A stretch of DNA of 64,000 bases, from the NCBI GenBank assembly GCA_964525715.1, contig CAZGJV010000010.1:18567-82566 (forward strand). The letters are read 5' to 3'. Shown here piece after piece: positions 7,346 to 36,166 of this stretch. Position 1 is the first letter of the stretch. Each line of letters opens with the position of its first letter. Origin of the DNA: an uncultured Conexibacter sp. Lineage in GTDB: Bacteria; Actinomycetota; Thermoleophilia; Solirubrobacterales; Solirubrobacteraceae. Made by a program: the position numbers and the translations under genes. Below the pieces are notes generated by a model. It worked only from the letters and a program-made list of their open reading frames with translations, was not told where the DNA came from and made no database searches.

Positions 7346-7363
7346 CGAAGGGAGCCCACGCGC

Positions 7364-11055: not shown

Positions 11056-11101
11056 TTTCGCCCGCCGGTGGTCGCAAGCGACCGCCTTCGGGCGACGTCA
11101 C

Positions 11102-11377: not shown

Positions 11378-11429
11378 GCCCGCCATGGTAGGCGGCGTCG
11401 CCGCCCACGCCAAGCCGGCCGAGCGCCGT

Positions 11430-12935: not shown

Positions 12936-13092
12936 GCCTTGAACGATAGTCAAACCACGAGCCGCGCGCGCTGGAGGACTACGGAGGACCGACCGCGGTG
13001 CCCCTGATGCCCTACCGGATGCACGGTGGGACGGTGCTCGGAGACGTCGGCGAACCCCACCCCACACCGTCCCGGCCCGAGAGGAGAGCCAG

Positions 13093-14631
<1,539 letters not shown>

Positions 14632-14636
14632 ACCCT

Positions 14637-15918: not shown

Positions 15919-15956
15919 GGATCAGACGATAGACGGCGCGATGCCCGCATCCGCCG

Positions 15957-16286
15957 CTACCGCACCTTGCTCCCGCTCGGGACCTGGGTCTCCGGCTGGA
16001 GCAGGACCGGCCGGCCGTCGCGATCGGCCGCGATGATCATGCCCTGGCTCTCGCAGCCGCGAATCACCCGCGGGTCGACGTTGAGCAGCACCGGCATCTG
16101 CCTGCCGCGCAGCGCGTCCGGATCGTCGAAGAACGGGGCCATCGCCGCCACGACCTGGCGCTGCTCGCCCGCGCCGACGTCGAACGTGAACCTGAGCAGC
16201 CGCTCGGCGCCCGCGACGCGCTCGACGCTCGTCACCGTTGCGATGCGGATGTCGAGCCGCGCGAAGTCCTCCCAGGTCACGTTCAT
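15957..16286 (-). CDS. tRNA-binding OB-fold protein (Trbp111/CsaA/MetRS C-terminal domain family)
   Basis: TWEDFARLDIRIATV, RQVVA, LLNVDPRVIRGCESQGMIIAA, GSKVR match the tRNA_bind domain. Confidence 0.9.
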   Translation of the reverse strand: MNVTWEDFARLDIRIATVTSVERVAGAERLLRFTFDVGAGEQRQVVAAMAPFFDDPDALRGRQMPVLLNVDPRVIRGCESQGMIIAADRDGRPVLLQPETQVPSGSKVR

Positions 16287-16295
16287 CGGCCGACG

Positions 16296-17834
16296 CTACC
16301 GCTGCCTACCCGCGATTGCACGCGCCAGCCGCGGCAGCGCCGCGCGATCCAGCTTGCCCGACGACGTGTGCGGCAGCTCCGGCACGAGCATCAGCCGCTG
16401 CGGCACCATGTAGGGCGCAAGCGCCGCGGCGGCGGCCGCGCGCACGGCCCGAACGACGGACGCCTCCTCCTGCCCCGGGCCCGGCACGAGCAGCGCCACG
16501 AGGAAGCCGTCGCCCCCCTCGGTCCGTGCGACGGTGACGGCGGCCGCGCTCACCTCGCGACACGCGCCCACGACGGCTTCGATCTCGCCGAGCTCGATGC
16601 GGTAGCCGCGCAGCTTCACCTGGTCGTCGTTGCGACCGACGTAGTCCAGCTCGCCGCCCGGCAGCACGCGTGCGAGGTCGCCGGTCCGGTACCAGCGCCG
16701 CGCGCCTCCGCCGACCGCGAGCTCGCGGAAGCGCTCCCGCGTCAACTCCGGCCGGTTGAGGTAGCCCTGCGCGACCCCGGCGCCGGCCACCCACATCTCC
16801 CCCACCTGCCCGTCCGCCACCGGCGAGAGACCGTCGTCCAGGACGGCCACCTCCAGATGCGGCAGCGCCCGGCCGATCGGCGACCGCGCAGCGTCGTCCG
16901 TCAGCTCCCCGAGCGGCTTCCAGGTGACGTGGACGGTCGTCTCGGTGATGCCGTACATGTTGACGAACGCCGGCGTCGAGCCGGCGGCGGCCGCGCGCTC
17001 GCGGAAGCGCCGCACGAGGCTCAGGTCGACGCCCTCGCCGCCGAAGATGACGTATCGCAGGGCGAGCGCGGGCGCCTCCTGCTCGTAGGCGCCGACCAGG
17101 CTCCGGAACGCCGACGGGATCTGGTTGAGCACGGTCACCGCGCGATCGGCCAGCAGCGCGAGCAGCTCGTCGGGGAGGCGCACGACGTCGGGCGCCACCA
17201 CCACGCAGCTGCCTCCGGTGGCGAGCGCCCCCCACAGCTCCCACACCGAGAAGTCGAACGCGTGGGAGTGGCAGAGCGTCCACACGTCCGCCGGCCCGAA
17301 CGCGAACAGCGGCAGCGCGTTGCGCAGCAGCGCGACGACGTTGGCGTGGCTGACCAGGACGCCCTTCGGCACACCGCTCGAGCCGGACGTGTAGATCACG
17401 TACGCGGGCGCGTCCGCTGCGACCTCCGGCAGCTCCCCCCGGGCGGCCGGGAGCGCGCCGGCGAGGCGCACGACCCCCACGCCCTCGGGGAGCAGGTGAT
17501 CGGCCGTGCCGTCGGAGACCACCTGGCCGATCTCGGCGTCGCCCAGGACGTGCTCGACCCGCGCGCGCGGGTGGGCCGGATCGAGCGGGACGTACGTCGC
17601 CGCCGCACGCATCGCGCCGAGGCTCGCAACCGCGACGTCGACGGTCCGGTCGAGCAGCAGTCCGACGCGGTGGCCCGGCCCGACGCCCGCCGCGATCAGC
17701 GTCAGAGCGAGGCGGCGGCTGGCGCGCTCCAGCTCCCGATAGGTGAGCGCGCGCTCCGCGTCGCGGACCGCGACCCGCTCGCCGTGCTCGGCGACCGACC
17801 GCAGGAACAGCTCGCAGAGGCTCTCCGGCCTCAT
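16296..17834 (-). CDS. Stand-alone NRPS adenylation domain (no carrier domain), predicted L-Thr
   Basis: A-domain cores YTSGSSGVPKG, FDFSVWE, NMYGITETTVH, YRTGD, QVKLRGYRIELGEIE, SGKLDR; the protein ends right after A10. Extracted code DFWNIGMVHK is the canonical Thr code. Confidence 0.9.
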   Translation of the reverse strand: MRPESLCELFLRSVAEHGERVAVRDAERALTYRELERASRRLALTLIAAGVGPGHRVGLLLDRTVDVAVASLGAMRAAATYVPLDPAHPRARVEHVLGDAEIGQVVSDGTADHLLPEGVGVVRLAGALPAARGELPEVAADAPAYVIYTSGSSGVPKGVLVSHANVVALLRNALPLFAFGPADVWTLCHSHAFDFSVWELWGALATGGSCVVVAPDVVRLPDELLALLADRAVTVLNQIPSAFRSLVGAYEQEAPALALRYVIFGGEGVDLSLVRRFRERAAAAGSTPAFVNMYGITETTVHVTWKPLGELTDDAARSPIGRALPHLEVAVLDDGLSPVADGQVGEMWVAGAGVAQGYLNRPELTRERFRELAVGGGARRWYRTGDLARVLPGGELDYVGRNDDQVKLRGYRIELGEIEAVVGACREVSAAAVTVARTEGGDGFLVALLVPGPGQEEASVVRAVRAAAAAALAPYMVPQRLMLVPELPHTSSGKLDRAALPRLARAIAGRQR

Positions 17835-17868
17835 CAGGCGCAGACGACGGACGTTCGCGCGCCGGCCC

Positions 17869-19368
17869 TCATGCGCCCTTCAGCTCGAGCTCCCGCCGGG
17901 CGCGCCGGGTGCCGATCCCGCCCGGGACGTTCGTCCGGCCGAGCGGCGAGTAGTCGTGCCGGTCGATCGGATCCTGCTTCGGATTGGCGATCGACTCGTT
18001 GCGGCGGCCGACCGTCTGCTTGACCTCGTCGCTCACGAACTGGAGCGCCATGCCATCGACGAACACGCTCCCGTCGTCTGACGGCGCGATCGTGCGCTCG
18101 CCCACGTTCAGCACGCCGAGGTCGCCGAGCCGCCCGAGCTGCTCGGAGAACCGCTCCAGCGGATCGACGCCGAAGCGGGCCGCGAACGCGGCCCGATCGA
18201 TCCCCTTCGACCGCAGCCCGAACATCATCGCGCGGCGCATCCGCTCGTCGTCGCTCAGCGTCGCCGCACGCCAGATCGGCTGCTCGCCGCGCTCGACCGC
18301 GTCGATGTACGGCGTCAGCCGGCACTCGTTGTAGAACTGCGTGCCGCCGACGTAGCCGAAGCCGCTCACGCCGAACGGCAGCAGGTTCGTGTCCTCGATG
18401 TCGTCGAACTTGCTCTCCTGCTGGCGCGAGTGTGTGGCGGTCTTCGCGTAGTACAGGACGGGGCCGCGCTGGAAGCCCTCGGCGTGCAGGATCGCCTCGG
18501 CCATCAGGTGCATGAGCAGGCGATCCTCCTCGCTGGGGAACAGCTCCGGCGACTTCGAGAACAGGTGCGTCACCGGGTCGGAGTGCTTGAACATCAGCGG
18601 GAAGACGTTGAACTTGCGCAGTCCCGCGTCGAGCAGCACCGCGATCGTCGCGTACCAGTTCTCGAGCGTCTGATGCGGGAGCCCGTAGATCAGGTCGACG
18701 TTGACGTTGTCGATCCCGCGCTCGCCGAGGATGTCGAGCATCGCGAAGACCTCGCCGCGCCCGTGGCCGCGATTGATCGTCGCGAGCACCTGCTCGTCCA
18801 TCGACTGCACGCCGAAGACGAAGCGGTTCGCTCCCCGCTCCCGCACTGCGTCGATGCGCTCGCCGTAGTCCGCGTGCCGCACGAGGCCGGGGTGCAGCTC
18901 GAACGTGACCTCCGCCGCGTCGTCCAGCTCGACGTGCTGCCAGAGCTGGTCGAACAGCGCCGCCAGCTCCTGCGGCTCGAGGTAGGAGGGCGTTCCACCG
19001 CCGAAGTAGGCCGAGTGCGCGCGGCGCGGGCCGCCGACGCGCTCGGTCGTCATGGCGATGTCGCGGTGCAGCGCGTCGAGGTAGCGCGTCACGCGCGAGG
19101 CCTGCGGCCGGATCTCCTTGGCGAAGTGGCAGAACGTGCACTGCTGCTCGCAGAACGGCAGGTGGACGTAGATGTTGCAGTTGGCGCTGGCCCCGGCCAG
19201 CACCTGCGACGGATCGGCCGGGCCCATCGCCTTGAGCGGCGGGTAGGTGCCGACGAGGTAGTACTCCAGCGGCCGCAGGTAGACGCCGGCACGTCGGAGC
19301 CCGTCCAGATCGATGTGAGCGGCCCGCTCGCGTGCCGCCTCGATCGCTTGATCGAACGTGAGTCTCAC
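17869..19368 (-). CDS. HemN-like (class C) radical SAM enzyme
   Basis: YVHLPFCEQQCTFC (CxxxCxxC), YFGGGTPS, FGVQS, NVDLIYGLPHQT and a HemN-type C-terminal domain. Confidence 0.9.
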   Translation of the reverse strand: MRLTFDQAIEAARERAAHIDLDGLRRAGVYLRPLEYYLVGTYPPLKAMGPADPSQVLAGASANCNIYVHLPFCEQQCTFCHFAKEIRPQASRVTRYLDALHRDIAMTTERVGGPRRAHSAYFGGGTPSYLEPQELAALFDQLWQHVELDDAAEVTFELHPGLVRHADYGERIDAVRERGANRFVFGVQSMDEQVLATINRGHGRGEVFAMLDILGERGIDNVNVDLIYGLPHQTLENWYATIAVLLDAGLRKFNVFPLMFKHSDPVTHLFSKSPELFPSEEDRLLMHLMAEAILHAEGFQRGPVLYYAKTATHSRQQESKFDDIEDTNLLPFGVSGFGYVGGTQFYNECRLTPYIDAVERGEQPIWRAATLSDDERMRRAMMFGLRSKGIDRAAFAARFGVDPLERFSEQLGRLGDLGVLNVGERTIAPSDDGSVFVDGMALQFVSDEVKQTVGRRNESIANPKQDPIDRHDYSPLGRTNVPGGIGTRRARRELELKGA

Positions 19369-19428
19369 CTCGTGCGGAACCTACCAGTTTCCGCACGCTA
19401 TTGTATTCTTTTGTATACGATAGTACGC
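19369..19428. promoter_or_regulatory. Divergent promoter region between the radical SAM gene and the glutamate mutase operon
   Basis: 60-nt AT-rich gap; TACGAT 7 nt before ATG 19429; tandem TTGTAT repeats (ttgtattcttttgtatac). Confidence 0.6.
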
Positions 19429-19968
19429 ATGGATGCGGTGTCGGAGCGTCCCAGGACCGCGCCGACGGACACGGCGGAGTCCGTCACCGCGCTCGCCGCG
19501 CTCGCGTCGCAGATCGCGCACGCGAGCTTGAGCGTGCTGATCGGCGTCCCGGGCGACGACGTCCACGTCGTCGCCAACAAGCTCGCCGAGACGATCCTCG
19601 CGTCGGTCGGCTACGCGGTCACGAACCTGGGCGTGCTGGTGCCGGCGGCCGAGCTGGTCGCGGCCGCCCGCGACCTGCGCCCGTCCGCGATCCTGCTGTC
19701 GTCGCTGAACGGGCACGCGCTGCTCAACTGCGGTTCCGTTCCACGGCTGCTGGCCGAGGCCGGCGAGGAGGTCCCCGTCTACGTAGGCGGCAACCTGTGC
19801 GTCGGTCGCACGGATTGGCCCCTGGTGCTGCGCCGCTTCGCGGGCCTCGGGTTCGCCCGCGTCTTCCCGCCGAGAACCGACCTGCTCGCAGGCGTCGCCG
19901 AGATCTCGCGCGAGCTGCTCCAGCCGCGAGTCGTCCACGCGATCCGTCGCAGCGGTGCGCCGGCGTGA
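19429..19968 (+). CDS. Glutamate (methylaspartate) mutase S/sigma subunit, cobalamin-binding
   Basis: B12-binding motif D-x-H (GDDVHVVANK), NLGV, SSLNGH, YVGGNL, GFARVF; translationally coupled to the E subunit. Confidence 0.9.
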   Translation: MDAVSERPRTAPTDTAESVTALAALASQIAHASLSVLIGVPGDDVHVVANKLAETILASVGYAVTNLGVLVPAAELVAAARDLRPSAILLSSLNGHALLNCGSVPRLLAEAGEEVPVYVGGNLCVGRTDWPLVLRRFAGLGFARVFPPRTDLLAGVAEISRELLQPRVVHAIRRSGAPA

Positions 19969-21410
19969 TCGCGCCCGACGCCTTCCTCGCCGCGCGCGCC
20001 CGCGTCCTGCAAAGCCATCCGAGCGGAGCGGAGGTCGACTTCGACGGCGGCGTGCGAACGCAGCGGTCGCTCGGCCCGCGGCAGCGCTTCCACCGGCTCA
20101 CCGCAGGGGCGCTGCGAAGCGGCGAGATGCTGTTGCAGCCGCGCGCGGGAGTCGCGACGATCGCCGGCCAGTCGGAGCTGCTGGGCCGCCTCGCCGGCGA
20201 GGGTGGAGCCGACGTCCTGCCGCTGACGATCGACAGCTTCACGCGACAGCTCGACTTCGCGCACGCGGACGCGCTGTGGCGCGAGGCCGAGGCGACCGCG
20301 ACCCCCGGGCTGCTCAACGGCTTCCCCGCGATCAGCGCGGGCGTGGCAGGATGCAACGCGGTCGTGCGCGCGTGCGACCGCGCGCTGCAGGTCCGCCACG
20401 GCGCGCCGGACGCGCGCCTGCTCGCGGAGGTCACGCTGGCCGCGGGCTGCAGCGCATTCGAGGGAGGCGGCATCACGTACTGCATCCCCTACTCGAAGAC
20501 CACGCCGCTCGAGCAGTCGCTGCGCTGGTGGGCGTACGTCGACCGGCTGTGCGGCCTCTACGCCGCGCACGGGGTCGTCGTCGAGCGCGAGGCGTTCGGC
20601 GCGCTCACCGGCATCATGATCCCGCCGTCGATCGCCGTCGCCTGCTCCGTGCTCGAGCTGCTGCTCGCGGCCGAGCAGGGCGTCGCGGCGTTCGCGCTCG
20701 GCATCGGCCAGGGCGGCGACCTGGTGCAGGACGCAGCCGCGATCAGGGCGCTCGACGTGGTCGGGCGCGCGTACCTGCGGCGCCACCGGCCGGCACATCG
20801 CGTACAGGTCAGCACGGTCTTCTACCAGTGGATGGGGCCGTTTCCGCGTGACGAGGCGGCCGCCGCGGCGATCATCGCGCTCGGCGCCGCCGCTGCCGTG
20901 GCGGGCGGCGCGACGCGCATGATCACGAAGTCCTGCGAGGAGGCGCACGGCGTGCCGGGAGCGGACAGCAACGCCGCCGGGCTGCGGCTCAGCCGCGCGA
21001 TGGCCTCGGCGCTGGCAGCGCATGCGTTCGCCGACCCGTCGCTGATCCGCGAGGAGCAGCACTGGATCGAGCGCGAGAGCCGCTGCCTGCTCGACAACGT
21101 GCTGCGGCTGTCCGAGAGCGGGTCGCTCGCCGACGGGATCTGCACCGCCTTCGACCGCGGCCAGCTCGACGTGCCGTTCGCTCCAAGCCTGGCGGTGCGC
21201 GGATCGGTCTGGACTCAGCGCGACGCGCGGCGCGCGATCCGCTACCGGGAGGTCGGACACCTCCCGTTCGACCGGGAGCTGCGCCAGCGCAACGATCGCG
21301 AGCTGGACCGACGGCGCGAGCGGGACGGGGACGTCGGAGCGACGCTGCGCGCGCTGGCCGGCGCGGTCGACGACATCTTCCCGATCCAGCCGTCGCGGTC
21401 TGCCGCGTAG
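19965..21410 (+). CDS. Glutamate (methylaspartate) mutase E/epsilon subunit
   Basis: QPRAGV, LPLTIDSFTR, LLNGFP, QVRHGAPDARLLAE, FEGGGITYCIPYSK, EREAFGALTG, QWMGPFP. GTG overlaps the S-subunit stop. Confidence 0.92.
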   Translation: MIAPDAFLAARARVLQSHPSGAEVDFDGGVRTQRSLGPRQRFHRLTAGALRSGEMLLQPRAGVATIAGQSELLGRLAGEGGADVLPLTIDSFTRQLDFAHADALWREAEATATPGLLNGFPAISAGVAGCNAVVRACDRALQVRHGAPDARLLAEVTLAAGCSAFEGGGITYCIPYSKTTPLEQSLRWWAYVDRLCGLYAAHGVVVEREAFGALTGIMIPPSIAVACSVLELLLAAEQGVAAFALGIGQGGDLVQDAAAIRALDVVGRAYLRRHRPAHRVQVSTVFYQWMGPFPRDEAAAAAIIALGAAAAVAGGATRMITKSCEEAHGVPGADSNAAGLRLSRAMASALAAHAFADPSLIREEQHWIERESRCLLDNVLRLSESGSLADGICTAFDRGQLDVPFAPSLAVRGSVWTQRDARRAIRYREVGHLPFDRELRQRNDRELDRRRERDGDVGATLRALAGAVDDIFPIQPSRSAA

Positions 21411-21418
21411 GACGGGGC

Positions 21419-24400
21419 GTGCCGGGTCCGTTCGACGCCGAGGATGCGCGCTACCGCGTCCTCGTCAACGGCGAGCAGCAGCACTCGCTGTGGCCGGACG
21501 GGGTCGACGTGCCGGCCGGATGGAGCGCCGTGTACGGCCCCGCCGGCCGTGCCGCATGCCTGCGGCACGTCGAGCGCAGCTGGAGCGACCTGCGCCCGGC
21601 GAGCCTCCGCCGCGCCACACCGGAGCCGTCCAGCGCGCGCGCCGGGTGCGTCCACGACGCCTTCGAGCGGTGCGCTGCGAGCGCGCCCGACGCGATCGCG
21701 CTCGTCGCAGCCGACGGTGCCGTGACCTACGGCGAGCTGAGCGCCGCGGCCGATCGCCTCGCCGCGGGCGTCGCGGCGGCGACGACGCGCGCGGAGGCGG
21801 TCGTCGGCATCTGCCTGGAGCGCGGCGTGGACCTCGTCGTCGCGCTGCTCGGCGTCCTGAAGGCGGGCTGCGCCTACGTCTGCCTCGACCCGACGTTCCC
21901 CGCCGCCCGGCGCGAGGAGATCCTGCTGGCCGCGCGCGCCGAGGCGCTGATCGCACGCGCCTGGCGGCCGTCCGCCGCCGCCCGGGAGCTCGCCGCGATC
22001 GACCCGCGCCCACAGGCGCACACGCCCGGCCTCGCGCCCCCCGCCGCGCGTGCGGTGCCCGACAGCCTCGCCTGCGTCCTGTTCACCTCGGGCTCGACCG
22101 GCACGCCGAAGGGCGTCGCGGTGCCCCACCGCGCCATCGTCGGCACGCTCGTGGGGCAGGACTACGCGGAGTTCGACAGCCGCTCGGTGTGGCTGCAGTC
22201 CGCGCCGATCTCGTGGGACGCCTTCCACCCCGAGCTGCTCGGTGCGCTGCTCCACGGCGGGACGTGCGTCATGCAGCCCGGCGAGGCGCCCGACCCGGCG
22301 CTGATGGCGGCGCTGGCCGCACGGCACGGGGTCACCGTCCTCAAGGCGTCGGCGAGCCTCTTCAACCACATGGTCGACGAGCATCCACAGCTGTTCCGGC
22401 AGGTCCGCCAGGCGATCACGGGCGGCGAGGCCCCCTCGATCCGGCATCTCGCCGAGCTGCGCCGGCTCGCTCCCGGCCTGCGGCTGACCAACGGCTACGG
22501 GCCGGTCGAGAGCATGGGCTTCACCACCGCCCACGACGTCACCGACGACGACCTCGCCTGCGGCGTGGTGCCGATCGGTCGTGCGGTCGCCGGCAAGCGG
22601 ATCCACGTCCTCGGCGAGGACCTGCGACCGGTGGCGCCCGGGGAGGTGGGCGAGATCCACGCGGCTGGCGTCGGCCTGGCGCGTGGCTACCTGGGGAGCC
22701 CCGCACTGACGGCCGAGCGCTTCGTCGCGAGCCCGTTCGGGCCGCCGGGCGAGCGGATGTACCGCACGGGCGACCTCGCCCGGGTGCGTCCCGACGGCGC
22801 GGTCGAGTACCTGCGCAGGAGCGACGACCAGCTGAAGATCCGCGGGTTCCGCGTCGAGCCCGCGGAGGTCGAGCGCGTGCTCGCAGGCCACGACGACGTG
22901 CGGCAGGTCGCGGTGGCGGTGCGGGACGACGGTCCCGCCGGCAGCGTCCTGGTCGCGTACGTCGTCGCGGCCGGGCGCGGCGGGCCCGACCTCGACGAGC
23001 TGCGGCGATTCGCTCGCTCGCGGCTCCCCGCGCACCTCGCGCCGGCGGTCTTCGTCGCGCTCGCGCAGCTGCCGCGGACCGCCGCCGGCAAGCTCGACCG
23101 GCGGGCGCTGCCACGGCCCGACTACGCGAGCGGCAACGGCGACGCCGCGACCCCGGACGAGGCCGTCCTCTGCGCCCTCTTCGCCGAGGTGCTCGGCGTC
23201 GCCGACGTCGGCACCGACGCGGACTTCTTCGCGCTCGGGGGCGAGTCGCTGCTCGCGCTGCGGCTGATCGGCCGGATCCGCTCGGAGCTGGACGTCGAGA
23301 TCGGCGCGCACGACCTGTTCGAGCGACCCTCCGCCGCCGGCCTGGCGCGGCGCGTCAGGAGCAGGGCGTCGGCGCGGCCGCCGCTGCACGCGCGCGAGCG
23401 GCCGCAGCGGGTCCCCCTGTCCGCGGCGCAGCTGCGGCTGTGGTTCCTCAGCCAGCTGGAGGACGGCGGCGCCAGCTACAACTGCCTGTACCTGCTGCAC
23501 CTGCGCGGGCGGCTGTCGGAGGTCGCGCTGGCCGACGCGCTCGCCGACGTGGTCGCGCGGCACGAGACGCTGCGCACGACCTTCCCGGTCGAGCGCGGCG
23601 AGCCGTGGCAGCGCGTGCTGCCGCCCGAGGCCGCCCGTCCCGCGCTCGTCCGCGTCGACTGCTCCGCGAGCGGGCTCGCGGCGGAGCTGCGCGCCGCCTC
23701 GCGCCACGCCTTCGACCTCGAGCGGGACCTCCCGATCCGCGCCCGCCTGCACCGGATCGCGCCCGACCACCACGCGCTGCTGCTCGTGCTCCACCACATC
23801 GCCACGGACGCCTGGTCGCGGCAGCCGTTGCTGCGGGACCTCGGCCGTGCCTACACGGCGCGCGCCGCGGGCCGGGCCCCCGCGTGGGAGCCGCTTCCGG
23901 TCCAGTACGCCGACTACGCCCTCTGGCACGCCGAGCTGTTGGGTGCCGACGGCGATCCGGCGAGCGTCGTGCGGGTGCAGGGCGAGCACTGGGCGCGCGC
24001 GCTCGCGGGCCTCCCGCGCGAGCTGGCGCTGCCGCGCGATCGCCCGCGCTCGAGCGCCGCGAGCCACGGCGCGGTCGGACGCGTCGAGCTCGACGTCCCC
24101 GCCGCGACGCACCTGCGCGTCGTCGAGCTCGCGCGAGCGAGCCGGGCGACGGCGTTCATGGTGCTGCAGGCAGCGGTCGCGGGCCTGCTGTCGCGCACCG
24201 GTGCCGGCGACGACATCGCGCTCGGCACGCCGATCGCCGGACGCACCGAGCCGGCGCTGGACCAGCTCGTCGGGTTCTTCGTCAACACGCTCGTGCTGCG
24301 CATGGAGGTCTCCGGCGACCCGTCGCTGCGCGAGCTCGTGCGCCGCGCACGCGAGGTCGACGTGGCCGCGTACGCGCATCAAGACGTCCCGTTCGACCGG

Positions 24401-24745
24401 CTCGTGCGCAGGCTCAACCCCGACCGGGCGCTGTCGCGGCACCCGCTGTTCCAGGTGATGCTCGTGATGGAGGACGGCGACGTCGCGGCGCCGCGGCTCG
24501 GCGACCTCGACGTGGCGCTCGAGCTCAGCCCCGCGGTCCCGGCGGGCGCGAAGTTCGACCTCGCGTTCGGCTTCCACGCGTGCTCCGGCAAGGACGGCGC
24601 GCACGGCATCCGCGCGTCGCTGGAGTACGACCGCGACGTCTTCGACGCGTCGACCGCCGAGCGACTGCTGCGCGAGCTCGAGCGGCTGCTCGCGGCCGGC
24701 GCGCGCGACCCGGACCTGCCGCTCGGCAAGCTCGGCCGCGGCTGA
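21419..24745 (+). CDS. NRPS MbtH-A-T-C, predicted to activate 3-methylaspartate or a related acidic residue
   Basis: N-terminal MbtH domain (VLVNGEQQHSLWP...PAGW...WSDLRP); A domain (FTSGSTGTPKG, SWDAF, NGYGPVESMGFTT); T domain (DFFALGGESL); C-terminal C domain (HHIATDAWS). Confidence 0.9.
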   Translation: MPGPFDAEDARYRVLVNGEQQHSLWPDGVDVPAGWSAVYGPAGRAACLRHVERSWSDLRPASLRRATPEPSSARAGCVHDAFERCAASAPDAIALVAADGAVTYGELSAAADRLAAGVAAATTRAEAVVGICLERGVDLVVALLGVLKAGCAYVCLDPTFPAARREEILLAARAEALIARAWRPSAAARELAAIDPRPQAHTPGLAPPAARAVPDSLACVLFTSGSTGTPKGVAVPHRAIVGTLVGQDYAEFDSRSVWLQSAPISWDAFHPELLGALLHGGTCVMQPGEAPDPALMAALAARHGVTVLKASASLFNHMVDEHPQLFRQVRQAITGGEAPSIRHLAELRRLAPGLRLTNGYGPVESMGFTTAHDVTDDDLACGVVPIGRAVAGKRIHVLGEDLRPVAPGEVGEIHAAGVGLARGYLGSPALTAERFVASPFGPPGERMYRTGDLARVRPDGAVEYLRRSDDQLKIRGFRVEPAEVERVLAGHDDVRQVAVAVRDDGPAGSVLVAYVVAAGRGGPDLDELRRFARSRLPAHLAPAVFVALAQLPRTAAGKLDRRALPRPDYASGNGDAATPDEAVLCALFAEVLGVADVGTDADFFALGGESLLALRLIGRIRSELDVEIGAHDLFERPSAAGLARRVRSRASARPPLHARERPQRVPLSAAQLRLWFLSQLEDGGASYNCLYLLHLRGRLSEVALADALADVVARHETLRTTFPVERGEPWQRVLPPEAARPALVRVDCSASGLAAELRAASRHAFDLERDLPIRARLHRIAPDHHALLLVLHHIATDAWSRQPLLRDLGRAYTARAAGRAPAWEPLPVQYADYALWHAELLGADGDPASVVRVQGEHWARALAGLPRELALPRDRPRSSAASHGAVGRVELDVPAATHLRVVELARASRATAFMVLQAAVAGLLSRTGAGDDIALGTPIAGRTEPALDQLVGFFVNTLVLRMEVSGDPSLRELVRRAREVDVAAYAHQDVPFDRLVRRLNPDRALSRHPLFQVMLVMEDGDVAAPRLGDLDVALELSPAVPAGAKFDLAFGFHACSGKDGAHGIRASLEYDRDVFDASTAERLLRELERLLAAGARDPDLPLGKLGRG

Positions 24746-24748
24746 CGC

Positions 24749-27598: not shown

Positions 27599-27639
27599 CG
27601 CGCTTAATGTATACTACGGTATTCAGTCCTCCAAGCCGG
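27599..27639. promoter_or_regulatory. Very short divergent promoter region
   Basis: AT-rich ttaatgtatactacggtatt; minus-strand TACATT 7 nt before GTG 27598; plus-strand TATACT. Confidence 0.55.
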
Positions 27640-28947
27640 ATGCGGCCGATGCGCTTTCCGCTCTCCACCGCGCAGCGCCTGCAGTGGGATCGCTACCACG
27701 GGGGCGCGCCGCGCAACGCGTACAACCTGTCGGTGCCCTTCGAGATCGAGGGCGACGTGGAGATGGACGCGCTGGAGCGCGCCGTGCTCGGCCTGCTGCG
27801 GCGCCACGAGGTGCTGCGAGCGAGGTTCGAGGACGATCTCGGCGAGCCGACCCAGATCGTCGAGACGATGCCCGCGTCCGTCCTGCAGGTCGTCGAAGGC
27901 CCCGACGCGCCGCGGGCATTCGCGCAGGCGCGCGAGGAGCCCTTCGACCTGCGGCGCGGCGGGCTCGTGCGTGCCGTCGCGGAGCCGCTCCCGGACGGCT
28001 GCCGGCTGCTGCTCGTGCTCCACCACATCGTCGCCGACGGCCGCTCGCTGATCACCGTCGTCGAGGACGTCGTCGCGCTGTACGCGTCGGAGGCGCGCGC
28101 CGGGTCCGGCGCGCCGCGACCGCTGCGCGCGCAGTTCCTGCCGTGGGCGCGCCAGCAGCACAACTGGCTCGACTCCCCGCAGGCCGCCGCCCGCCTGGAG
28201 GGGATCGCGCGGCGGCTGCGCGGCGCTCCCGCGCTCTGCACGCTGGCGCCCGATCACCCGCGACAGGAGGTGCAGCAGTTCGTCGGTCGGGAGCTCGCGT
28301 CGGAGCTGGAGGGCACGCTGGTGGAGGACGCGGCGCGCACCGCGCGAACGTTGCGGGCGACTCCGTTCATGGTCTGGTGCGCCGCACTGATCGTGACGCT
28401 CGCGCGCTGGACCGGGCTGGAGGACGTCGTGGTGGCGACCCCCGTCGGGTCGCGCCCCGCGGCGGCGTTCGACGACGTCGTCGGATGCTTCGTGACGCGG
28501 GGGCTGGTGCGCTGTCCGGTCCCTCCGTCCACCACCTTCGCGGACGTGGTCCAGCGCGTGCGCGCGGAGGTGCTGGAGTCGATCGAGCAGCGCGACATCC
28601 CGCTGGGCCGCGTCTGCGAGCGGCTCGGCGTGCAGCCCTCGCGAGCGTGGAGCCCGCTCGCGCAGGTGCTGTTCGCGCACGAGGCGCCGCTGCATGCGCC
28701 GATCACCGCGAGCGGGCTGCGCTGGACGGTGCCGCCGCCGGAGGTCGACGAGGCGGGCGAGGGCCCAATCCGCGCGGACGTCGTCGTGACCGTCCGTCAC
28801 GCGTTCGACGGAGCCGCGCTGATCGTCTCGTGGGCGACGGACCTCTACGACCGCGACACGATGCGTCGCTTCGCGGCGAGCTACCGCGAGACGGCTCGCG
28901 CGACGATGGCGGACCCTTTCGGGCCCGTGCGGCCGGCGGCGGACTGA
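27640..28947 (+). CDS. Stand-alone NRPS condensation domain
   Basis: FPLSTAQ, AYNL, RHEVLRARF, EPFDL, intact HHIVADG, VGCFV. Start is ATG 27640 or 27649. Confidence 0.88.
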   Translation: MRPMRFPLSTAQRLQWDRYHGGAPRNAYNLSVPFEIEGDVEMDALERAVLGLLRRHEVLRARFEDDLGEPTQIVETMPASVLQVVEGPDAPRAFAQAREEPFDLRRGGLVRAVAEPLPDGCRLLLVLHHIVADGRSLITVVEDVVALYASEARAGSGAPRPLRAQFLPWARQQHNWLDSPQAAARLEGIARRLRGAPALCTLAPDHPRQEVQQFVGRELASELEGTLVEDAARTARTLRATPFMVWCAALIVTLARWTGLEDVVVATPVGSRPAAAFDDVVGCFVTRGLVRCPVPPSTTFADVVQRVRAEVLESIEQRDIPLGRVCERLGVQPSRAWSPLAQVLFAHEAPLHAPITASGLRWTVPPPEVDEAGEGPIRADVVVTVRHAFDGAALIVSWATDLYDRDTMRRFAASYRETARATMADPFGPVRPAAD

Positions 28948-28951
28948 GCGC

Positions 28952-31900
28952 TCACGCGCGCGCGGCCTCGACGGCCGCGGCCAGCGCGCCGACCGTCGCG
29001 CCCTCGAACAGCACCCGCAGCGACAGCTCGACGGCGAACGCCTCCTGCACCCGCGCCATCATCTCCGCCACGAGCAGCGAATGCCCGCCCAGCTCGAAGA
29101 AGTCGTCCTCCACCCCCACCGCATCCACGCCAAGCAGCTCCCGCCACACGCCGCACAAGCACTCCTCCACCGCCGTCCGCGGCGCGACGGACGCACCACC
29201 GCGCAACGGCCCCTCCGGCGCCGGCAGCGCACGCCGGTCGACCTTCCCGCTCGGCGTCGACGGCAGCCGCTCCAGCAGCGCCACGCGCGACGGGACCATG
29301 AACTCCGGCAGCCGCCCCCGCAGCCACGACCGCAGCGCCTCGCCGTCCACTCCGTCCTCGACGACCGCGTACGCCACCAGCCGCCGGTCTCCCGCGACGT
29401 CCTCGCGCGCGACCACGGCCGCCTCCCGCACCCCCGCGTGCGTGGCCAGCGCCGCCTCGACCTCGCCCGGCTCCACGCGGTAGCCCCGCACCTTCACCTG
29501 CTCGTCCGTCCGCCCCAGGAACTCCAGGCGACTGTCCCCGCGCCACCGCGCCACGTCGCCCGAGCGATACAGCCGCCCGCCGCCGAAGGGAGCGTCCACG
29601 AACCGCTCGGTCGTCAGCTCCGCACGGCCCAGGTACCCGCGCGCCACACCCACCCCGCCGATGCACAGCTCGCCGGCCACGCCGACCGGCAGCGGCCGCA
29701 ACCCCTCGTCCAGCACGAAGCACGTCACGTTCCCGATCGGACGACCGATCGGCGGCTCGCCCTCGACGTCCGCGTCGAGCTCGGCGATCGTCGCCACGAT
29801 GCTCGCCTCGGTCGGCCCGTAGGCGTTGAACAGGCGCCGGCCGCGCGCCCACCTCGACGCCAGCTCGCGCGGACAGCGCTCGCCGCCCACGACGATCGTC
29901 CGCAGCGACGGCACGCGCCGCGGGTCGACGGTCCTCAGCACCGATGCGGGCAGCGCCGCGATCGTGATCCCGAGCTCGCGCCACACGTGCGGGTCGTGCG
30001 GCTCGGCGTGCGGCAGGCAGAGCGTCGCGCCGTGCAGCAGCGCGATCAGGATCTCCCACAGGCACGGGTCGGTGCTGAGCGAGGCGAACTGCAGCACGCG
30101 ATCGCCGGGACCGACGTCGAACAGCGCACTCTGATGGCAGGCGAGGTTGGTGAGCCCGCGGTGCTCGACCATCACGCCCTTGGGGGTGCCGGTCGAGCCG
30201 GAGGTGTAGATCACGTAGGCGAGGCTGTCCGCCGTCGCCAGCGGCGGCGGCGTCGTCACGGGCTGCTCGGCGATCAGCGGCCGGTCGCGATCGAGCGAGA
30301 CGACGGGCGCGTCGCTCGCGGGCAGCACGCGCGCCGACGCGCTGTCGCTCACCACCACCCGCGCCCCGGCGTCCGCGAGCATGAACGCGACGCGCTCGGC
30401 CGGATACGAGGGATCGACCGGCACGTACGCACCACCGGCCTTCAAGATCCCCAGCACGCCGACGACCAGCTCGACCGAGCGCGACACGCAGATCCCGACG
30501 AGCGTCTCGCGCCCGACCCCCAGCGAGCGCAGGTGCCACGCCAGCTGGTTGGCGCGGCGATCGAGCTCGCCGTAGCCGATCTCGCGATCCCCGTGACGCA
30601 CGGCGATCGCCTCCGGCGAGCGCGCCGCCTGCTCCGCCACCAGCTCGTGCACGCGGCGATCCGGAACCTCGCCCACCGACCCGCTCCACTCCACCAGCAC
30701 CCGCTCGCGCTCCGCCTCCCGCAGCAGCGACAGCTCGCCGACCGCCCGTCCCGGCTCCGCCACGGCGGCGTCGACCAGCCGCGCGAAGTGCTCGCCCATG
30801 CGCGCGACGGTCGCCTCGTCGAACAGGTCGGTCGCGTAGGTGACGTTGATCGTCAGCTCCCCGTCCAGCTCTCGCGCCGACCACTCCATGTCGAAGCGCG
30901 CGCGACCGGTCGAGCAGCCGGTGAACGCCTCGACCCCCATGCCCGCCGCCCCGAGCTCCGCCGCCGGGCCGGCCTGACGATCGAGCCGGCCGGACTCGAC
31001 CAGCTGGAGCATCACCTGCACGAGCGGATGCCGGCTCACGTCGCGGACGGGCTGCAGCTCGTCGACGAGCCTGTCGAACGGCAGGTCCTGATGCGCATAG
31101 GCGTCGAGCGACGCTGCTCGCACGCGCGCGAGCAGCTCGCGGAAGCTGGGGTCGCCGGACAGGTCGCCGCGCAGCACGAGCGTGTTGACGAAGAACCCGA
31201 TCGTCCGCTCGACCTCGGCCCACGAGCGCCCCGCCGCCGGCACGCCGACGACCACGTCGTCACCGGCCCCGTAGCGCGACAGCAGCAGCTCGAAGACCGC
31301 CGTCAGCACCATGAACAGCGTCACCCCCTCACTGCGCGCAAGCTCCCTGAGGGCGTCGGTCGCCTCCTTGCCGATCCGGAAGGTCACCGTCGCGCCGCGG
31401 TACGTGGGCATCGCGGGCCGCGGGCGATCGGTCGGCAGCTCCAGCGCCAGCGGGGCTCCCCGCAGCTGCTCGCGCCAGTACGCGAGCTGCCCGTCGAGCA
31501 GCTCGCGATCGAGCGATCCGCGCTGCCACACGGCGAAGTCGGCGTACTGGAGCGGCGGTGCGCCGAGCGGCGACGAGCGCCCCTCCACACCCGCGCGGTA
31601 GAGCGCGGCGACCTCGTCGAGCCAGACGTCCCACGACCAGCCGTCGAAGACGATGTGATGCGTCACGAACCACAGCACATGCTCCCGCTCACCCAACCGC
31701 ACGAGCCCCGCACGCACCAGCCGGTCCCGCTCCAGGTCGAACGGCCGCGCACCCTCCCCGCCGACGATCTCACGCACCCGCGACGCGAGGTCCCCATCCT
31801 CGCCGGAGACGTCCACGAGCGGCAACGACGACGTCCACGGCTCGTGCACGATCTGCCGCGGGCGCCCGCCGACGCTCGCGAAGCGCGTCCGCAGCACCTC

Positions 31901-34099
31901 ATGCCGCGCGACGACCTCGCCTAAGGCCCGCTCCAGCGCCCTCACGTCGAGCGGCCCCGTCAAGCGGACCGCGTCGCACACGTTGTAGAACGCGTTCCCC
32001 GGCACCAGCCGATCCAGGAACCACAACCGCTGCTGCCCGAACGACAACGGCACCACCTCAGGCCGCGAGACCGGCGCCAACGGCGGAGCCGCCGGAGCGC
32101 GCGGCACCTCCGCGGCGGCTTCGGCCTCGAGCAGCTCGGCGAGCGCCGCCACCGTCGGGTGGTCGAACAGCGCCCGCACGGACAACTCGACGCCGAGCAG
32201 CTTCCGCACCCGATACCGCAGCTGCACCACCAGCAGCGAATGCCCGCCCAGCTCGAAGAAGTCGTCCTCCACCCCCACCGCATCCACGCCAAGCAGCTCC
32301 CGCCACACGCCGCACAAGCACTCCTCCACCGCCGTCCGCGGCGCGACGAACGCGCCGGCCGCCTGCTCCGCGACCGGCTCCTCCGCACGACGGTCCGGCA
32401 CCTCGTCCCGCAGCGACAGCTCGCCGACCGACCGCCACGGCTCCGCCACCGCTGCGCCGATCAGCTGGACGAAGCCCTCCACCATCCCCATCGCCGTCAC
32501 CTCGTCGAACAGATCGGTCGCGTAGCTCACGCCGGCGACCAGCTCGCCGTCGACGTCCCGCACCGCCCAGTCCATGTCGAAGCGCGCGCGACCGGCCTGC
32601 CATCCCGCGACCGCCTCGACGCGCAGGCCCACCGCCGCGAGCTCGCCGGCCGGGCCGTCCCGGCCCTCGGCGCGCGGATCGAGCGGGCCGGGCTCGATCA
32701 GCTGGAACATCACCTGCACCAGCGGATGCCGGCTCAGGTCGCGAACGGGCTGCAGCTCCTCGACCAGCCGGTCGAACGGCAGGTCCTGATGCGCGTACGC
32801 CCCGAGCGACGCCTCCCGCACCCGGCCCAGCAGCTCGGAGAAGGTTGGGTCCCCGGACAGGTCGCCGCGCAGCACGAGCGTGTTGACGAAGAACCCGATC
32901 GTGTGCTCGACCTCGGCCCACGAGCGCCCCGCCGCCGGCACGCCGACCAGCACGTCGTCGCCGGCGCCGTGACGAGACAGCAGCAGCTCGAAGACCGCCG
33001 TCAGCGCCATGAACGGCGTGACACCCTCCCGGCGCGCGAGGTCCTTCAGCGCCTCGCTCAGCTCGCGCCCGAGCCCGCGGCTCACGCTCGCGCCGCGATA
33101 CGTGGGCATCGCGGGCCGTGCGCGATCGGCCGGCAGCTCCAGCACCAGTGGCGCCCCGCGCAGCGTCTCGCGCCAATACGCAAGCTGCCCCTCGAGCAGC
33201 TCGCCCTCCAGCCACCTGCGCTGCCACACGGCGAAGTCGGCGTACTGCACCGGCAACGGCTCCAGCGGCGAGGAGCGGCCCTCCACGCTCGCTCGGTACA
33301 GGGCGGCCACCTCGCCCACCAGCACCTCCCACGACCAGCCGTCGAAGACGATGTGATGCGTCACGAACCACAGCACGTGCTCGCGCTCGCCCAACCGCAC
33401 GAGCCCCGCACGCAGCAGCCGACCGTGCTCCAAGTCGAACGGCCGCGCGCCCTCCCCGCCGACGATCTCACGCGCCAGCGACTCGACGTCCCCGCCGTAC
33501 CCCGACACGTCGAGCAGTGCCGGTGCCGGCGTCCACGGATCCTCCACGACCTGCCGCGGACGGCCGTCACTGTCGACGAAGCGCGTCCGCAGCACCTCAT
33601 GCCGCGCGACGACCTCGCCCACCGCCCGCTCCAGCGCCCCCACGTCCAGCGCGCCAGTCAGGCGCACCGCGTCGCACACGTTGTAGAACGCGTTCCCCGG
33701 CACCAGCCGATCCAGGAACCACAACCGCTGCTGCCCGAACGACAACGGCACCACCGCAGGGCGCGGGAGCGGCACCAACGTCGGAGCCGCGGGCTCACCG
33801 GACGCACCCGACGCGTGCTCGACCGCGTCCGCCAGCCCGGCGACGGTCGGATGGTCGAACAGCACACGCACCGGCAGGTCGACCCCGAACAGCTCCCGCA
33901 GCCGATAGCGCAGCTGCGCCACGAGCAGCGAGTGCCCACCCAACTCGAAGAAGTCGTCCTCCACCCCCACCGCACCCACGCCGAGCAGCTCGGCCCACAG
34001 CGCGCACAGCCGCTCCTCCAGCGGGCTGCGCGCAGCCACCAGCTCACCGCCGACGACCCACCGGCCCTCCGGCTCGGATGCGTTCGGCAGGTCGCTCAT
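28952..34099 (-). CDS. NRPS T-C-T-C-A-T (about 1715 aa), no thioesterase
   Basis: Start MSDLPN overlaps the MFS stop (ATGA). Three DDFFELGGHSLL carrier motifs, two THHIVFDGWS C domains and one A domain (code DPWAVGAIVK, hydrophobic/aromatic-like); ends after the last T. Confidence 0.92.
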   Translation of the reverse strand: MSDLPNASEPEGRWVVGGELVAARSPLEERLCALWAELLGVGAVGVEDDFFELGGHSLLVAQLRYRLRELFGVDLPVRVLFDHPTVAGLADAVEHASGASGEPAAPTLVPLPRPAVVPLSFGQQRLWFLDRLVPGNAFYNVCDAVRLTGALDVGALERAVGEVVARHEVLRTRFVDSDGRPRQVVEDPWTPAPALLDVSGYGGDVESLAREIVGGEGARPFDLEHGRLLRAGLVRLGEREHVLWFVTHHIVFDGWSWEVLVGEVAALYRASVEGRSSPLEPLPVQYADFAVWQRRWLEGELLEGQLAYWRETLRGAPLVLELPADRARPAMPTYRGASVSRGLGRELSEALKDLARREGVTPFMALTAVFELLLSRHGAGDDVLVGVPAAGRSWAEVEHTIGFFVNTLVLRGDLSGDPTFSELLGRVREASLGAYAHQDLPFDRLVEELQPVRDLSRHPLVQVMFQLIEPGPLDPRAEGRDGPAGELAAVGLRVEAVAGWQAGRARFDMDWAVRDVDGELVAGVSYATDLFDEVTAMGMVEGFVQLIGAAVAEPWRSVGELSLRDEVPDRRAEEPVAEQAAGAFVAPRTAVEECLCGVWRELLGVDAVGVEDDFFELGGHSLLVVQLRYRVRKLLGVELSVRALFDHPTVAALAELLEAEAAAEVPRAPAAPPLAPVSRPEVVPLSFGQQRLWFLDRLVPGNAFYNVCDAVRLTGPLDVRALERALGEVVARHEVLRTRFASVGGRPRQIVHEPWTSSLPLVDVSGEDGDLASRVREIVGGEGARPFDLERDRLVRAGLVRLGEREHVLWFVTHHIVFDGWSWDVWLDEVAALYRAGVEGRSSPLGAPPLQYADFAVWQRGSLDRELLDGQLAYWREQLRGAPLALELPTDRPRPAMPTYRGATVTFRIGKEATDALRELARSEGVTLFMVLTAVFELLLSRYGAGDDVVVGVPAAGRSWAEVERTIGFFVNTLVLRGDLSGDPSFRELLARVRAASLDAYAHQDLPFDRLVDELQPVRDVSRHPLVQVMLQLVESGRLDRQAGPAAELGAAGMGVEAFTGCSTGRARFDMEWSARELDGELTINVTYATDLFDEATVARMGEHFARLVDAAVAEPGRAVGELSLLREAERERVLVEWSGSVGEVPDRRVHELVAEQAARSPEAIAVRHGDREIGYGELDRRANQLAWHLRSLGVGRETLVGICVSRSVELVVGVLGILKAGGAYVPVDPSYPAERVAFMLADAGARVVVSDSASARVLPASDAPVVSLDRDRPLIAEQPVTTPPPLATADSLAYVIYTSGSTGTPKGVMVEHRGLTNLACHQSALFDVGPGDRVLQFASLSTDPCLWEILIALLHGATLCLPHAEPHDPHVWRELGITIAALPASVLRTVDPRRVPSLRTIVVGGERCPRELASRWARGRRLFNAYGPTEASIVATIAELDADVEGEPPIGRPIGNVTCFVLDEGLRPLPVGVAGELCIGGVGVARGYLGRAELTTERFVDAPFGGGRLYRSGDVARWRGDSRLEFLGRTDEQVKVRGYRVEPGEVEAALATHAGVREAAVVAREDVAGDRRLVAYAVVEDGVDGEALRSWLRGRLPEFMVPSRVALLERLPSTPSGKVDRRALPAPEGPLRGGASVAPRTAVEECLCGVWRELLGVDAVGVEDDFFELGGHSLLVAEMMARVQEAFAVELSLRVLFEGATVGALAAAVEAARA
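29073..29189. repeat. 117-bp exact direct repeat, copy 1 (T3 carrier domain)
   Basis: Identical to 32232-32348. Confidence 0.9.
31968..32057. repeat. 90-bp exact direct repeat at the start of the duplicated C domains
   Basis: Identical to 33666-33755; the two C domains stay highly similar along their length. Confidence 0.88.
32232..32348. repeat. 117-bp exact direct repeat, copy 2 (T2 carrier domain)
   Basis: Identical to 29073-29189. Confidence 0.9.
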
Positions 34100-35880: not shown

Positions 35881-36092
35881 ACTCGATCGCGCAGCACTCC
35901 CCAGCCGAGCAACGTCAATCGAGGTCGACACCGGCGTCGCCGAGATTACGTGCGAGATCGCCGTCGATCACGCCGCGCCCGCTTGTTCCCGAGGACTCTG
36001 CTTGTTCCCTCGTCCGATACCCGACGTATGGTGTGACACCGGCTCGGGTCCGACAGTGCCGATTTGCAGGTGTTTCCTGCGGAACTCCCCAG

Positions 36093-36166
36093 TCGGGGCG
36101 CCGGGATTTGAACCCGGGACCTCCTGCTCCCAAAGCAGGTGCGCTACCAAGCTGCGCTACGCCCCG
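36093..36166 (-). tRNA. tRNA-Pro(TGG)
   Basis: Reverse complement CGGGGCGTAGCGCAGCTTGGTAGCGCACCTGCTTTGGGAGCAGGAGGTCCCGGGTTCAAATCCCGGCGCCCCGA folds as a cloverleaf with anticodon TGG; CCA is not encoded. Confidence 0.97.

What the first reader, a model, noticed from the sequence alone, without database searches (positions are those of the whole stretch)
16296..34099. Two carrier-less A enzymes match two A-less carrier domains: in-trans loading
Seen in sequence: the free A (16296-17834) and C*-A (24749-27598) both stop right after the A10 lysine with no T domain, while T1 and T2 of the large NRPS have no cis A domain. Inference: they are loaded in trans. The suggested order is MbtH-A-T-C (starter) -> T1 -> C1 -> T2 -> C2-A-T3. 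The C* domain lacks the catalytic second His (HRTLLD) and may serve as a docking scaffold that selects T1 versus T2.
Basis: partly seen in the sequence, partly recalled or inferred. Interest (0 to 1): 0.75.

Follow-up and report, generated by a model that had tools for sequence, protein, structure and literature searches.

The report
Peptide assembly line with outsourced loading
A 20-kb gene island encodes a peptide assembly line in which two carrier domains lack a loading enzyme of their own and are likely charged by two separate, carrier-less loading enzymes, a known trick in an unusual arrangement.

Summary
Observation confirmed. The free A (16296-17834) and C*-A (24749-27598) end 18 and 10 residues after the A10 lysine, with no carrier. 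The large NRPS is T1-C1-T2-C2-A3-T3, and C* reads HRTLLDE. The genes form a 20-kb island at tRNA-Pro with exactly 4 A, 4 T and 5 C domains and no thioesterase; the genome search found no other peptidyl carrier. C1-T2 is a duplicate of C2-A3-T3 with its A deleted: a 17-residue scar remains, and contigs of five runs bridge the junction. Predicted substrates are Thr (free A), His (C*-A) and 3-methylaspartate (MbtH-A, SlgN1-like, beside glutamate mutase); A3 is unassigned. In-trans loading is likely (0.7) but untested. T1 and T2 are nearly identical around the serine, so pairing would depend on position; His to T1 and Thr to T2 is my best guess. C* looks like a decayed C; docking is unsupported (complex prediction unavailable). 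Trans loading is known (WS9326A, kutzneride, capreomycin), and the scan noted an A-less module on other DNA (e1-4801407). Verdict: new variant of a known kind.

The parts
15957..16286 (-). tRNA-binding domain protein (PF01588, Trbp111/MetG-C-like), last gene of the island, 9 nt behind the free A; role unknown
   Evidence: Pfam, NCBIfam; absent from the same site in 4 of 4 congeners; only copy found in the genome
16296..17834 (-). Free A domain without carrier; code DFWNIGMVHK, predicted Thr
   Evidence: code listed among Thr-type signatures in PMC12283262
17869..19368 (-). HemN-like radical SAM enzyme, a predicted tailoring enzyme; substrate unknown
   Evidence: relatives at about 42-56% identity sit in varied clusters
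19412..19418 (.). TGTATAC motif in the divergent intergenic region rSAM/glmS (possible operator)
   Evidence: 2 matches in the window, 0.19 expected, 2 of 100 shuffles reach 2
19429..19968 (+). Glutamate (methylaspartate) mutase S subunit, B12-binding
   Evidence: PF02310; NF002612 above cut-off
19965..21410 (+). Glutamate mutase E subunit, predicted source of 3-methylaspartate
   Evidence: PF06368; TIGR01503 above cut-off
21419..24745 (+). MbtH-A-T-C protein; A code DAPKIGGGFK (SlgN1-like, predicted 3-methylaspartate), T with GGES, C with HHIATDA
   Evidence: best PDB hit 4GR5 SlgN1, E 1.7e-146, 8 of 10 code residues shared; SlgN1 substrate from PMC11253843
24749..27598 (-). C*-A protein without carrier: degenerate C (about 26291-27556, HRTLLDE) plus A with code DSALIAEVWK, predicted His
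   Evidence: code listed as His-activating in PMC12283262
27608..27614 (.). Second TGTATAC motif, between the divergent C*-A and stand-alone C genes
27640..28947 (+).
   Evidence: (44 of 72 conserved columns); start may be 27607, 27640 or 27649
28952..34099 (-). NRPS T1 (33806-34036)-C1-T2 (32114-32344)-C2-A3 (29222-30655; code DPWAVGAIVK, unassigned)-T3 (28955-29185); no TE
32358..32409 (-). Deletion scar between C1 and T2: 17 residues of a lost A-domain N-terminus, 13 of 17 identical to the start of A3
   Evidence: 0 of 2000 shuffles reach the score
34096..35562 (-). DHA2-type MFS exporter, stop overlapping the NRPS start
36092..36166 (-). tRNA-Pro(TGG) at the right border of the island
   Evidence: synteny with 4 of 4 congeners resumes at or near this gene

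Best explanation
The island encodes a dissociated NRPS with four A and four carrier domains, in which T1 and T2 have no adjacent A domain and are likely loaded in trans by the two carrier-less enzymes, the His-type C*-A likely on T1 and the Thr-type free A likely on T2. Shown: the domain inventory, the island borders, the A-deletion scar and intact motifs. Predicted: the substrates. Inferred pathway: glutamate mutase makes 3-methylaspartate, and MbtH-A loads it on its own T. Its C-terminal C would join it to His-T1, C1 would add Thr on T2, and C2 would add the A3 residue on T3. With no thioesterase, the stand-alone C would release the tetrapeptide (onto an amine or by ring closure); the radical SAM enzyme would tailor one residue and the MFS would export the product. 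Because T1 and T2 are nearly identical around the serine, sorting would come from position. The bare Thr enzyme could occupy the slot left behind C1 by the deleted A, whereas C*-A, whose C-binding face is taken by C*, would reach only the N-terminal T1, like a module split between A and T. C* is most likely a decayed structural relic. Odds given trans loading: His-T1/Thr-T2 about 0.55; this order about 0.55.
For: Closed accounting: the island (about 15937-36090) lies between a native hydrolase, with orthologues in 21 of 26 congeners, and tRNA-Pro; 4 of 4 congeners examined carry only about 3.7-5.2 kb of unrelated DNA there. It holds 4 A and 4 T. The genome (94.8% complete) has 7 PP-binding hits: these 4, two ACPs beside fatty-acid genes, and one marginal hit (E 1e-3) that I could not assign to a gene; it also has one PF01648 transferase. 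C1-T2 aligns to C2-A3-T3 with the A missing: C1/C2 77% identical, T2/T3 share 117 identical nt, scar 13 of 17. T1's N-terminal extension weakly resembles the A3-T3 linker (72 of 2000 protein and 13 of 2000 DNA shuffles reach the score). C1 is not decaying: 69 of 72 conserved columns, dN/dS 0.41 against C2, branch 0.16 vs 0.14. Both free A keep A3, A5, A7, A8 and A10. Codes match published Thr and His signatures. The C of MbtH-A-T-C is an ordinary elongating type (best PDB hit DhbF 5U89, E 3e-121), while the free C is divergent (best E 3e-42), which fits release. The two other genomes matched by MbtH-A (2 of 400) also have glutamate-mutase genes beside it.
Against: No biochemical or interaction test, and no homologous whole cluster to compare. 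T1 and T2 share 15 of 15 residues up to and including the serine and 12 of 16 after it, and T2 equals T3 at 34 of 34 residues up to the serine. So A3 could load T2, as CmnA-A1 loads CmnI (PMC12400406), and the two free enzymes may not discriminate. In the kutzneride line a partial A is reported as critical for KtzN transfer (PMC10587159 passage); here only 17 residues remain. The MbtH-A code differs from SlgN1 at 2 of 10 positions, and the A3 code is unassigned. The order is not fixed by any result.
Confidence: 0.7

Rival explanations
1. Same trans loading, opposite order. C*-A plus T1 is the initiation module, with C* a vestigial starter. The chain runs T1, T2, T3; the stand-alone C then joins it to 3-methylaspartyl-T of MbtH-A-T-C, whose C-terminal C releases the product (His/Thr-Thr/His-X-MeAsp).
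For: Uses every domain once. Loss of the catalytic His is about ninefold commoner in N-terminal C domains (6 of 117 vs 5 of 914). A congener has an HRxxxDD C in what appears to be the first of two modules. In G350 and G267 the SlgN1-like A sits in C-A-T acceptor modules. C-terminal C domains can release peptides (PMC10587159, PMC11546977 passages).
Against: The C of MbtH-A-T-C is an ordinary elongating type and the free C is the divergent one. T3 has no evident docking extension.
Confidence: 0.3
2. A3 (or MbtH-A) loads T2 and perhaps T1 iteratively, as CmnA-A1 loads CmnI. One or both carrier-less enzymes then act as carrier-independent amide ligases together with the stand-alone C.
For: T2 and T3 are identical over 34 residues up to the serine. 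Iterative trans loading is demonstrated (PMC12400406). Among 119 related NRPS, 12 have A-less C-T modules, 5 of them directly before a module with an SlgN1-like A.
Against: Helix 2 of T2 resembles T1 (12 of 16), not T3 (6 of 16). It leaves two intact amino-acid-type A enzymes without a carrier in a 10-gene island, and no other peptidyl carrier was found in the genome.
Confidence: 0.17
3. Both free enzymes load both carriers without sorting; the C domains gate the order, or the line makes a mixture of His/Thr congeners.
For: T1 and T2 are nearly identical on the surfaces that A domains normally touch. CmnI prefers its cognate A less than threefold (KD 1.85 vs 4.93 uM, PMC12400406).
Against: The contexts differ strongly: a free N-terminus for T1, against T2 held between two C domains.
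Confidence: 0.2
4. The A-less modules are relics of a decaying cluster, or an assembly collapse.
For: C* and the free C have lost many conserved residues; the NRPS contains repeats; no homologous cluster was found.
Against: No stop or frameshift; C1 and the T serines are intact; dN/dS 0.41; the junction is bridged in 5 runs, at single-copy depth where depth could be judged.
Confidence: 0.06

Closest known systems
Streptolydigin SlgN1 (MbtH-A, PDB 4GR5)
   Same: Best structural relative of MbtH-A: fused MbtH, 8 of 10 code residues, substrate beta-methyl-Asp (PMC11253843 table). That SlgN1 works with a glutamate mutase and loads a separate C-T protein is recalled.
   Different: Here the A has its own T and C in cis and the line is all-peptide, with no polyketide part.
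WS9326A Cal22(Thr)/Cal23(Asn) (PMC7539972, parts 1-2 of 4 read)
   Same: Two trans-acting A enzymes, one of them for Thr, serve an assembly line with an A-less C-T module.
   Different: There they are described as A-PCP didomains and only one module is A-less. Here both enzymes lack a carrier, there are two A-less carriers on one protein, and the island has no shuttle carrier or thioesterase.
Kutzneride KtzH C-A*-T with stand-alone KtzN (passage in PMC10587159)
   Same: A module that lost most of its A is served by a stand-alone A.
   Different: KtzH keeps a partial A reported as critical for transfer; here 17 residues remain, and two such carriers exist.
Capreomycin/viomycin CmnI/VioI (PMC12400406, parts 1-2 of 3 read)
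   Same: An N-terminal T-C unit without A, with an N-terminal extension of about 20 residues that is needed for binding the loading A; T1 here has a 22-residue extension.
   Different: There the donor is the A of another complete module acting iteratively; here dedicated carrier-less enzymes exist.
Andrimid, syringomycin, yersiniabactin (introduction of PMC7539972); pacidamycin PacU/PacO/PacL (recalled; two ids tried were not held)
   Same: Dissociated lines with free A domains loading carriers in trans; PacL is recalled as having an inactive C.
   Different: Different substrates and architectures; no relationship by sequence was tested.
X-domain of glycopeptide NRPS (Tcp12, PDB 4TX2)
   Same: C fold (TM 0.88, rank 4) and an HRxxxD-acidic motif (HRxxxDD per PMC11546977; HRTLLDE here).
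   Different: C* is N-terminal before an A rather than in the last module; there is no P450 in the island; and 4TX2 is only the 10th sequence hit.

Membership tests
NRPS with A-less modules loaded in trans | Intact C and T without a cis A domain | tested here: met
   T1 and C1-T2; serines and HHIVFDG intact
NRPS with A-less modules loaded in trans | Separate, intact A enzyme(s) in the same cluster | tested here: met
   Free A and C*-A with all core motifs, inside the island
NRPS with A-less modules loaded in trans | The separate A actually acylates the A-less carrier | not testable with these tools
WS9326A-type shuttle system | Trans A fused to its own PCP, or a shuttle carrier | tested here: not met
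   No T behind either enzyme and no free PCP in the island or found in the genome
Kutzneride-type C-A*-T module | Large A remnant retained in the module | tested here: not met
   Only a 17-residue N-terminal scar; no further A hit in the island
SlgN1-type 3-methylaspartate A domain | MbtH fusion, closest solved relative SlgN1, similar code, glutamate mutase adjacent | tested here: met
   code 8 of 10
SlgN1-type 3-methylaspartate A domain | Activates (2S,3S)-3-methylaspartate | not testable with these tools
   Predicted only; positions 239 and 278 differ (P, K vs L, Q)
X-domain | C fold with HRxxxDD in place of HHxxxDG | tested here: inconclusive
   Fold met; motif is HRxxxDE; similar motifs occur in two unrelated congener domains
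X-domain | Located in the terminal module and paired with P450 enzymes | tested here: not met
   N-terminal before an A; no P450 among the island genes
HemN-like radical SAM tailoring enzymes | Radical_SAM plus HemN_C domains, distinct from housekeeping HemW | tested here: met
   below every NCBIfam cut-off; a separate copy at 29% identity exists in the genome

The most novel reading that the evidence does not exclude
C* is a convergently evolved X-like platform (HRxxxDE). It steers C*-A to T1 among two almost identical carriers and recruits the HemN-like radical SAM enzyme to carrier-bound histidine. The line would then sort two carrier-less loaders purely by position and tailor on the carrier.
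Probability: 0.08. Interest if true: 0.75.

Novelty: new variant of a known kind. Interest (0 to 1): 0.42.

Why it matters
[quoted passage not shown] This island offers a compact natural test: two carriers on one protein, nearly identical around the serine, and two carrier-less loaders with clearly different predicted substrates, so one mass-spectrometry experiment can show whether position alone sorts them. That bears on engineering NRPS with exchangeable free A enzymes. The duplicated module with its deletion scar also records how an A-less module arises. The predicted methylaspartate/His/Thr peptide has no counterpart that I could find, but I had no natural-product cluster database to search.

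Tried and rejected
Homologous clusters: none found in those searched. The radical SAM gene in 60 relatives gave only 26-37% HemW-like hits. Its relatives in 25 examined of 80 loci from genome contigs had no matching NRPS layout or mutase. MbtH-A-T-C gave 63 metagenome loci of generic NRPS. Phylum samples of 400 genomes gave 2 MbtH-A and 3 mutase matches (only 3-4 candidates were scored per genome, so sensitivity is low).

C* relatives: only itself and one 35% hit at E 1e-100. The top 150 representatives are itself and multi-module giants at 37% identity or less, a ranking biased by summed scores.

Hydrolase 14974-15918 as release enzyme: rejected as a cluster gene, because it is native and outside the island. 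Thioesterase family search: 3 weak hits, none in the island. X-domain membership: rejected; the three HR-type domains do not group in a quick tree (the careful tree did not finish, and C* and the free C are long branches). Automatic pairwise code extraction mis-aligned several positions, so codes were read from the MAFFT alignment.

Complex prediction (C* with the radical SAM enzyme) was not available, so no interaction was modelled. No RNA holder listed. The sigma-70 scan found one site upstream of the MFS.

Paper searches: searches were uninformative. One search found only DSALIAEVWK in print, not the MbtH-A or A3 codes. Three recalled ids were not held. Supplements were not read; the code tables of PMC12283262 may bear on the A3 and MbtH-A assignments.

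Full report
OBSERVATION. Pfam and a six-frame profile scan of the cluster find four A, four T and five C domains. The free A (16296-17834) ends 18 residues after the A10 lysine and C*-A (24749-27598) ends 10 residues after it; no carrier follows either in any frame. The large NRPS starts at 34099, overlapping the MFS stop, and reads T1-C1-T2-C2-A3-T3 with three GGHS serines and two HHIVFDG motifs. C* reads HRTLLDE.

IS IT REAL? The gene has internal repeats, so I laid contigs of 7 different public runs. Five bridge the C1-T2 junction without a difference (X3; X1, X2, X4, X7). In X1, X2 and X4 the junction has the depth of unique sequence, and in X1 and X2 the stretch shared by T2 and T3 has twice that. 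X1 and X2 may be the source, and all 19 listed holders are 2019 rhizosphere runs, so these are not fully independent. The 1715-aa protein is on record from 3 contigs, plus a one-residue variant.

BORDERS. The neighbouring hydrolase has orthologues in 21 of 26 congeners. In 4 of 4 congeners examined, synteny stops near 15.9 kb and resumes near 36.1 kb, at tRNA-Pro, with about 3.7-5.2 kb of unrelated genes in between. The cluster is therefore a 20-kb island of ten genes: tRNA-binding protein, free A, radical SAM enzyme, mutase S and E, MbtH-A-T-C, C*-A, free C, NRPS and MFS. It has no thioesterase. The genome (94.8% complete) has 7 carrier hits: these four, two ACPs beside fatty-acid genes, and one marginal hit. 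It also has one PF01648 transferase, one cobalamin adenosyltransferase and only the fused MbtH. A TGTATAC motif lies in both divergent intergenic regions (2 found, 0.19 expected), which hints at co-regulation.

ORIGIN OF THE A-LESS CARRIERS. C1-T2 aligns to C2-A3-T3 with the A missing. C1 and C2 are 77% identical, T2 and T3 share 117 identical bases, and between C1 and T2 stand 17 residues of which 13 match the start of A3 (0 of 2000 shuffles). T1's N-terminal extension weakly resembles the A3-T3 linker (72 and 13 of 2000 shuffles), so T1 probably lost a cis A too (inference). C1 has not decayed: 69 of 72 conserved columns, dN/dS 0.41 over 444 codons, branch lengths 0.16 and 0.14. A-less C-T modules are not rare among relatives: 12 of 119 proteins, and four in one cluster of G267.

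SUBSTRATES (predicted). Codes were read from the alignment, with positions anchored on motifs by recalled GrsA numbering. The free A has DFWNIGMVHK and C*-A has DSALIAEVWK, listed as Thr-type and His signatures in passages of PMC12283262. MbtH-A has DAPKIGGGFK; its best solved relative is SlgN1 (E 1.7e-146, code DALQIGGGFK read), whose substrate is beta-methyl-Asp (table in PMC11253843). The mutase genes lie directly upstream, and both other genomes matched by this protein also carry mutase genes beside it. A3 (DPWAVGAIVK) is unassigned. Only the MbtH-fused A has Ala at the position I take to be the MbtH-binding residue; the others have Asp, Glu or Arg (rule from PMC7539972), which fits the lack of a free MbtH. 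Relatives of the radical SAM enzyme sit in PKS, NRPS and other clusters, so its substrate cannot be inferred.

C*. It models as a complete C fold (pLDDT 89.6, alignment-driven) but keeps 46 of 72 conserved columns, against 59-72 in 55 ordinary domains, with losses in the active-site motif and the FFVN motif. Of 1031 aligned C domains, 11 lack the second His and none has Arg; loss is commoner at N-termini (6 of 117 vs 5 of 914). HRxxxDE resembles the X-domain's HRxxxDD (PMC11546977 passage). However, two congeners have HR-type C domains that do not group with C* (quick tree), one of them with HH orthologues; there is no P450 in the island; and 4TX2 is only the tenth sequence hit. I read C* as a dead C kept for structure. 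A steering or recruiting role is not excluded, and no complex could be modelled.

MECHANISM. Four loaders, four carriers and a closed island make trans loading of T1 and T2 by the two carrier-less enzymes the most economical reading (0.7). The carriers offer little to tell the enzymes apart: 15 of 15 identical residues up to and including the serine and 12 of 16 after it. I infer sorting by position: C*-A with T1 as a module split between A and T, and the bare Thr enzyme in the slot vacated behind C1. CmnI offers a precedent, since its 20-residue N-terminal extension is needed for binding the loading A (PMC12400406). The C of MbtH-A-T-C is an ordinary elongating type and the free C is divergent, which slightly favours MeAsp-His-Thr-X with release by the free C. 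The reverse order, ending in MeAsp with release by the C-terminal C, also uses every part. Against my reading, T2 equals T3 over 34 residues up to the serine, so iterative loading by A3 remains possible.

KNOWN SYSTEMS AND VERDICT. Trans loading of A-less modules is established: WS9326A (PMC7539972, parts 1-2 of 4 read), kutzneride (one passage, PMC10587159), capreomycin (PMC12400406, parts 1-2 of 3 read), and andrimid, syringomycin and yersiniabactin as cited there; pacidamycin is recalled. What differs here is two A-less carriers in tandem on one protein, at least one from deletion in a duplicated module, with two different carrier-less loaders and no shuttle carrier or thioesterase. I did not see this combination in my ten paper searches, which cover open-access papers only and were not all aimed at it. 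No homologous cluster was found in those searched. Verdict: new variant of a known kind, interest 0.42.

Noticed in passing
window 15957-16286 (-): A stand-alone tRNA-binding domain gene (Trbp111/MetG C-terminal-like) is part of the island, right behind the free Thr enzyme, and is the only copy found in the genome; cargo or self-protection, unexplained.
   Followed up: partly
window 19412-19418 and 27608-27614: TGTATAC sits in both divergent intergenic regions (17 hits genome-wide counting both strands); it resembles a GntR-type operator (recalled), yet the island has no regulator.
   Followed up: partly
window 15937-36166; L185-L188: The tRNA-Pro(TGG) site is an insertion hotspot: congeners carry different small cassettes there, some toxin-antitoxin-like by eye.
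   Followed up: partly
L192-L193 (G001:C49, about 17392-22050) and L196:7637-10705 (G011): Two more C domains with HRxxxD-acidic motifs in this genus. One follows, in the same open frame, a stretch resembling an FAD-dependent oxidoreductase; the other has orthologues with normal HH in G007 and G024.
   Followed up: partly
L013, L015, L016, L018 (about 8000-18000): The same radical SAM subfamily recurs with a TPP enzyme and a P450 (4 of 4) and, in some, KASIII-like, ACP, HMG-CoA-synthase and enoyl-CoA hydratase genes: an apparently uncharacterised polyketide cassette.
   Followed up: no
L020-L031 (rhizobia), about 10000-13300: A radical SAM gene followed by a roughly 400-aa protein without a Pfam match and a GNAT gene, in 8 loci, in several next to hydrogenase genes.
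   Followed up: no
L027:3002-7728: A radical SAM gene with anthranilate phosphoribosyltransferase-like, class I (W/Y) tRNA-synthetase-like and carbamoyltransferase genes, suggesting a synthetase-targeting product.
   Followed up: no
L162 and L189 (G267:C100): A cluster with C-T-C-T-C-(partial A)-T and C-T-C-A-T proteins, SlgN1-like A domains, an A-T didomain, a mutase S gene and a TauD-like gene: four A-less modules.
   Followed up: partly
window 4509-11055: Operon of UDP-sugar dehydrogenase, GT2, glucosamine-fructose-6-phosphate aminotransferase-like and fn3-GH18 genes; a possible chitin-like polymer locus.
   Followed up: no
window 46628-47923 (-): A ribonucleotide-reductase small-chain-like di-iron domain fused to an SCP2 domain.
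   Followed up: no
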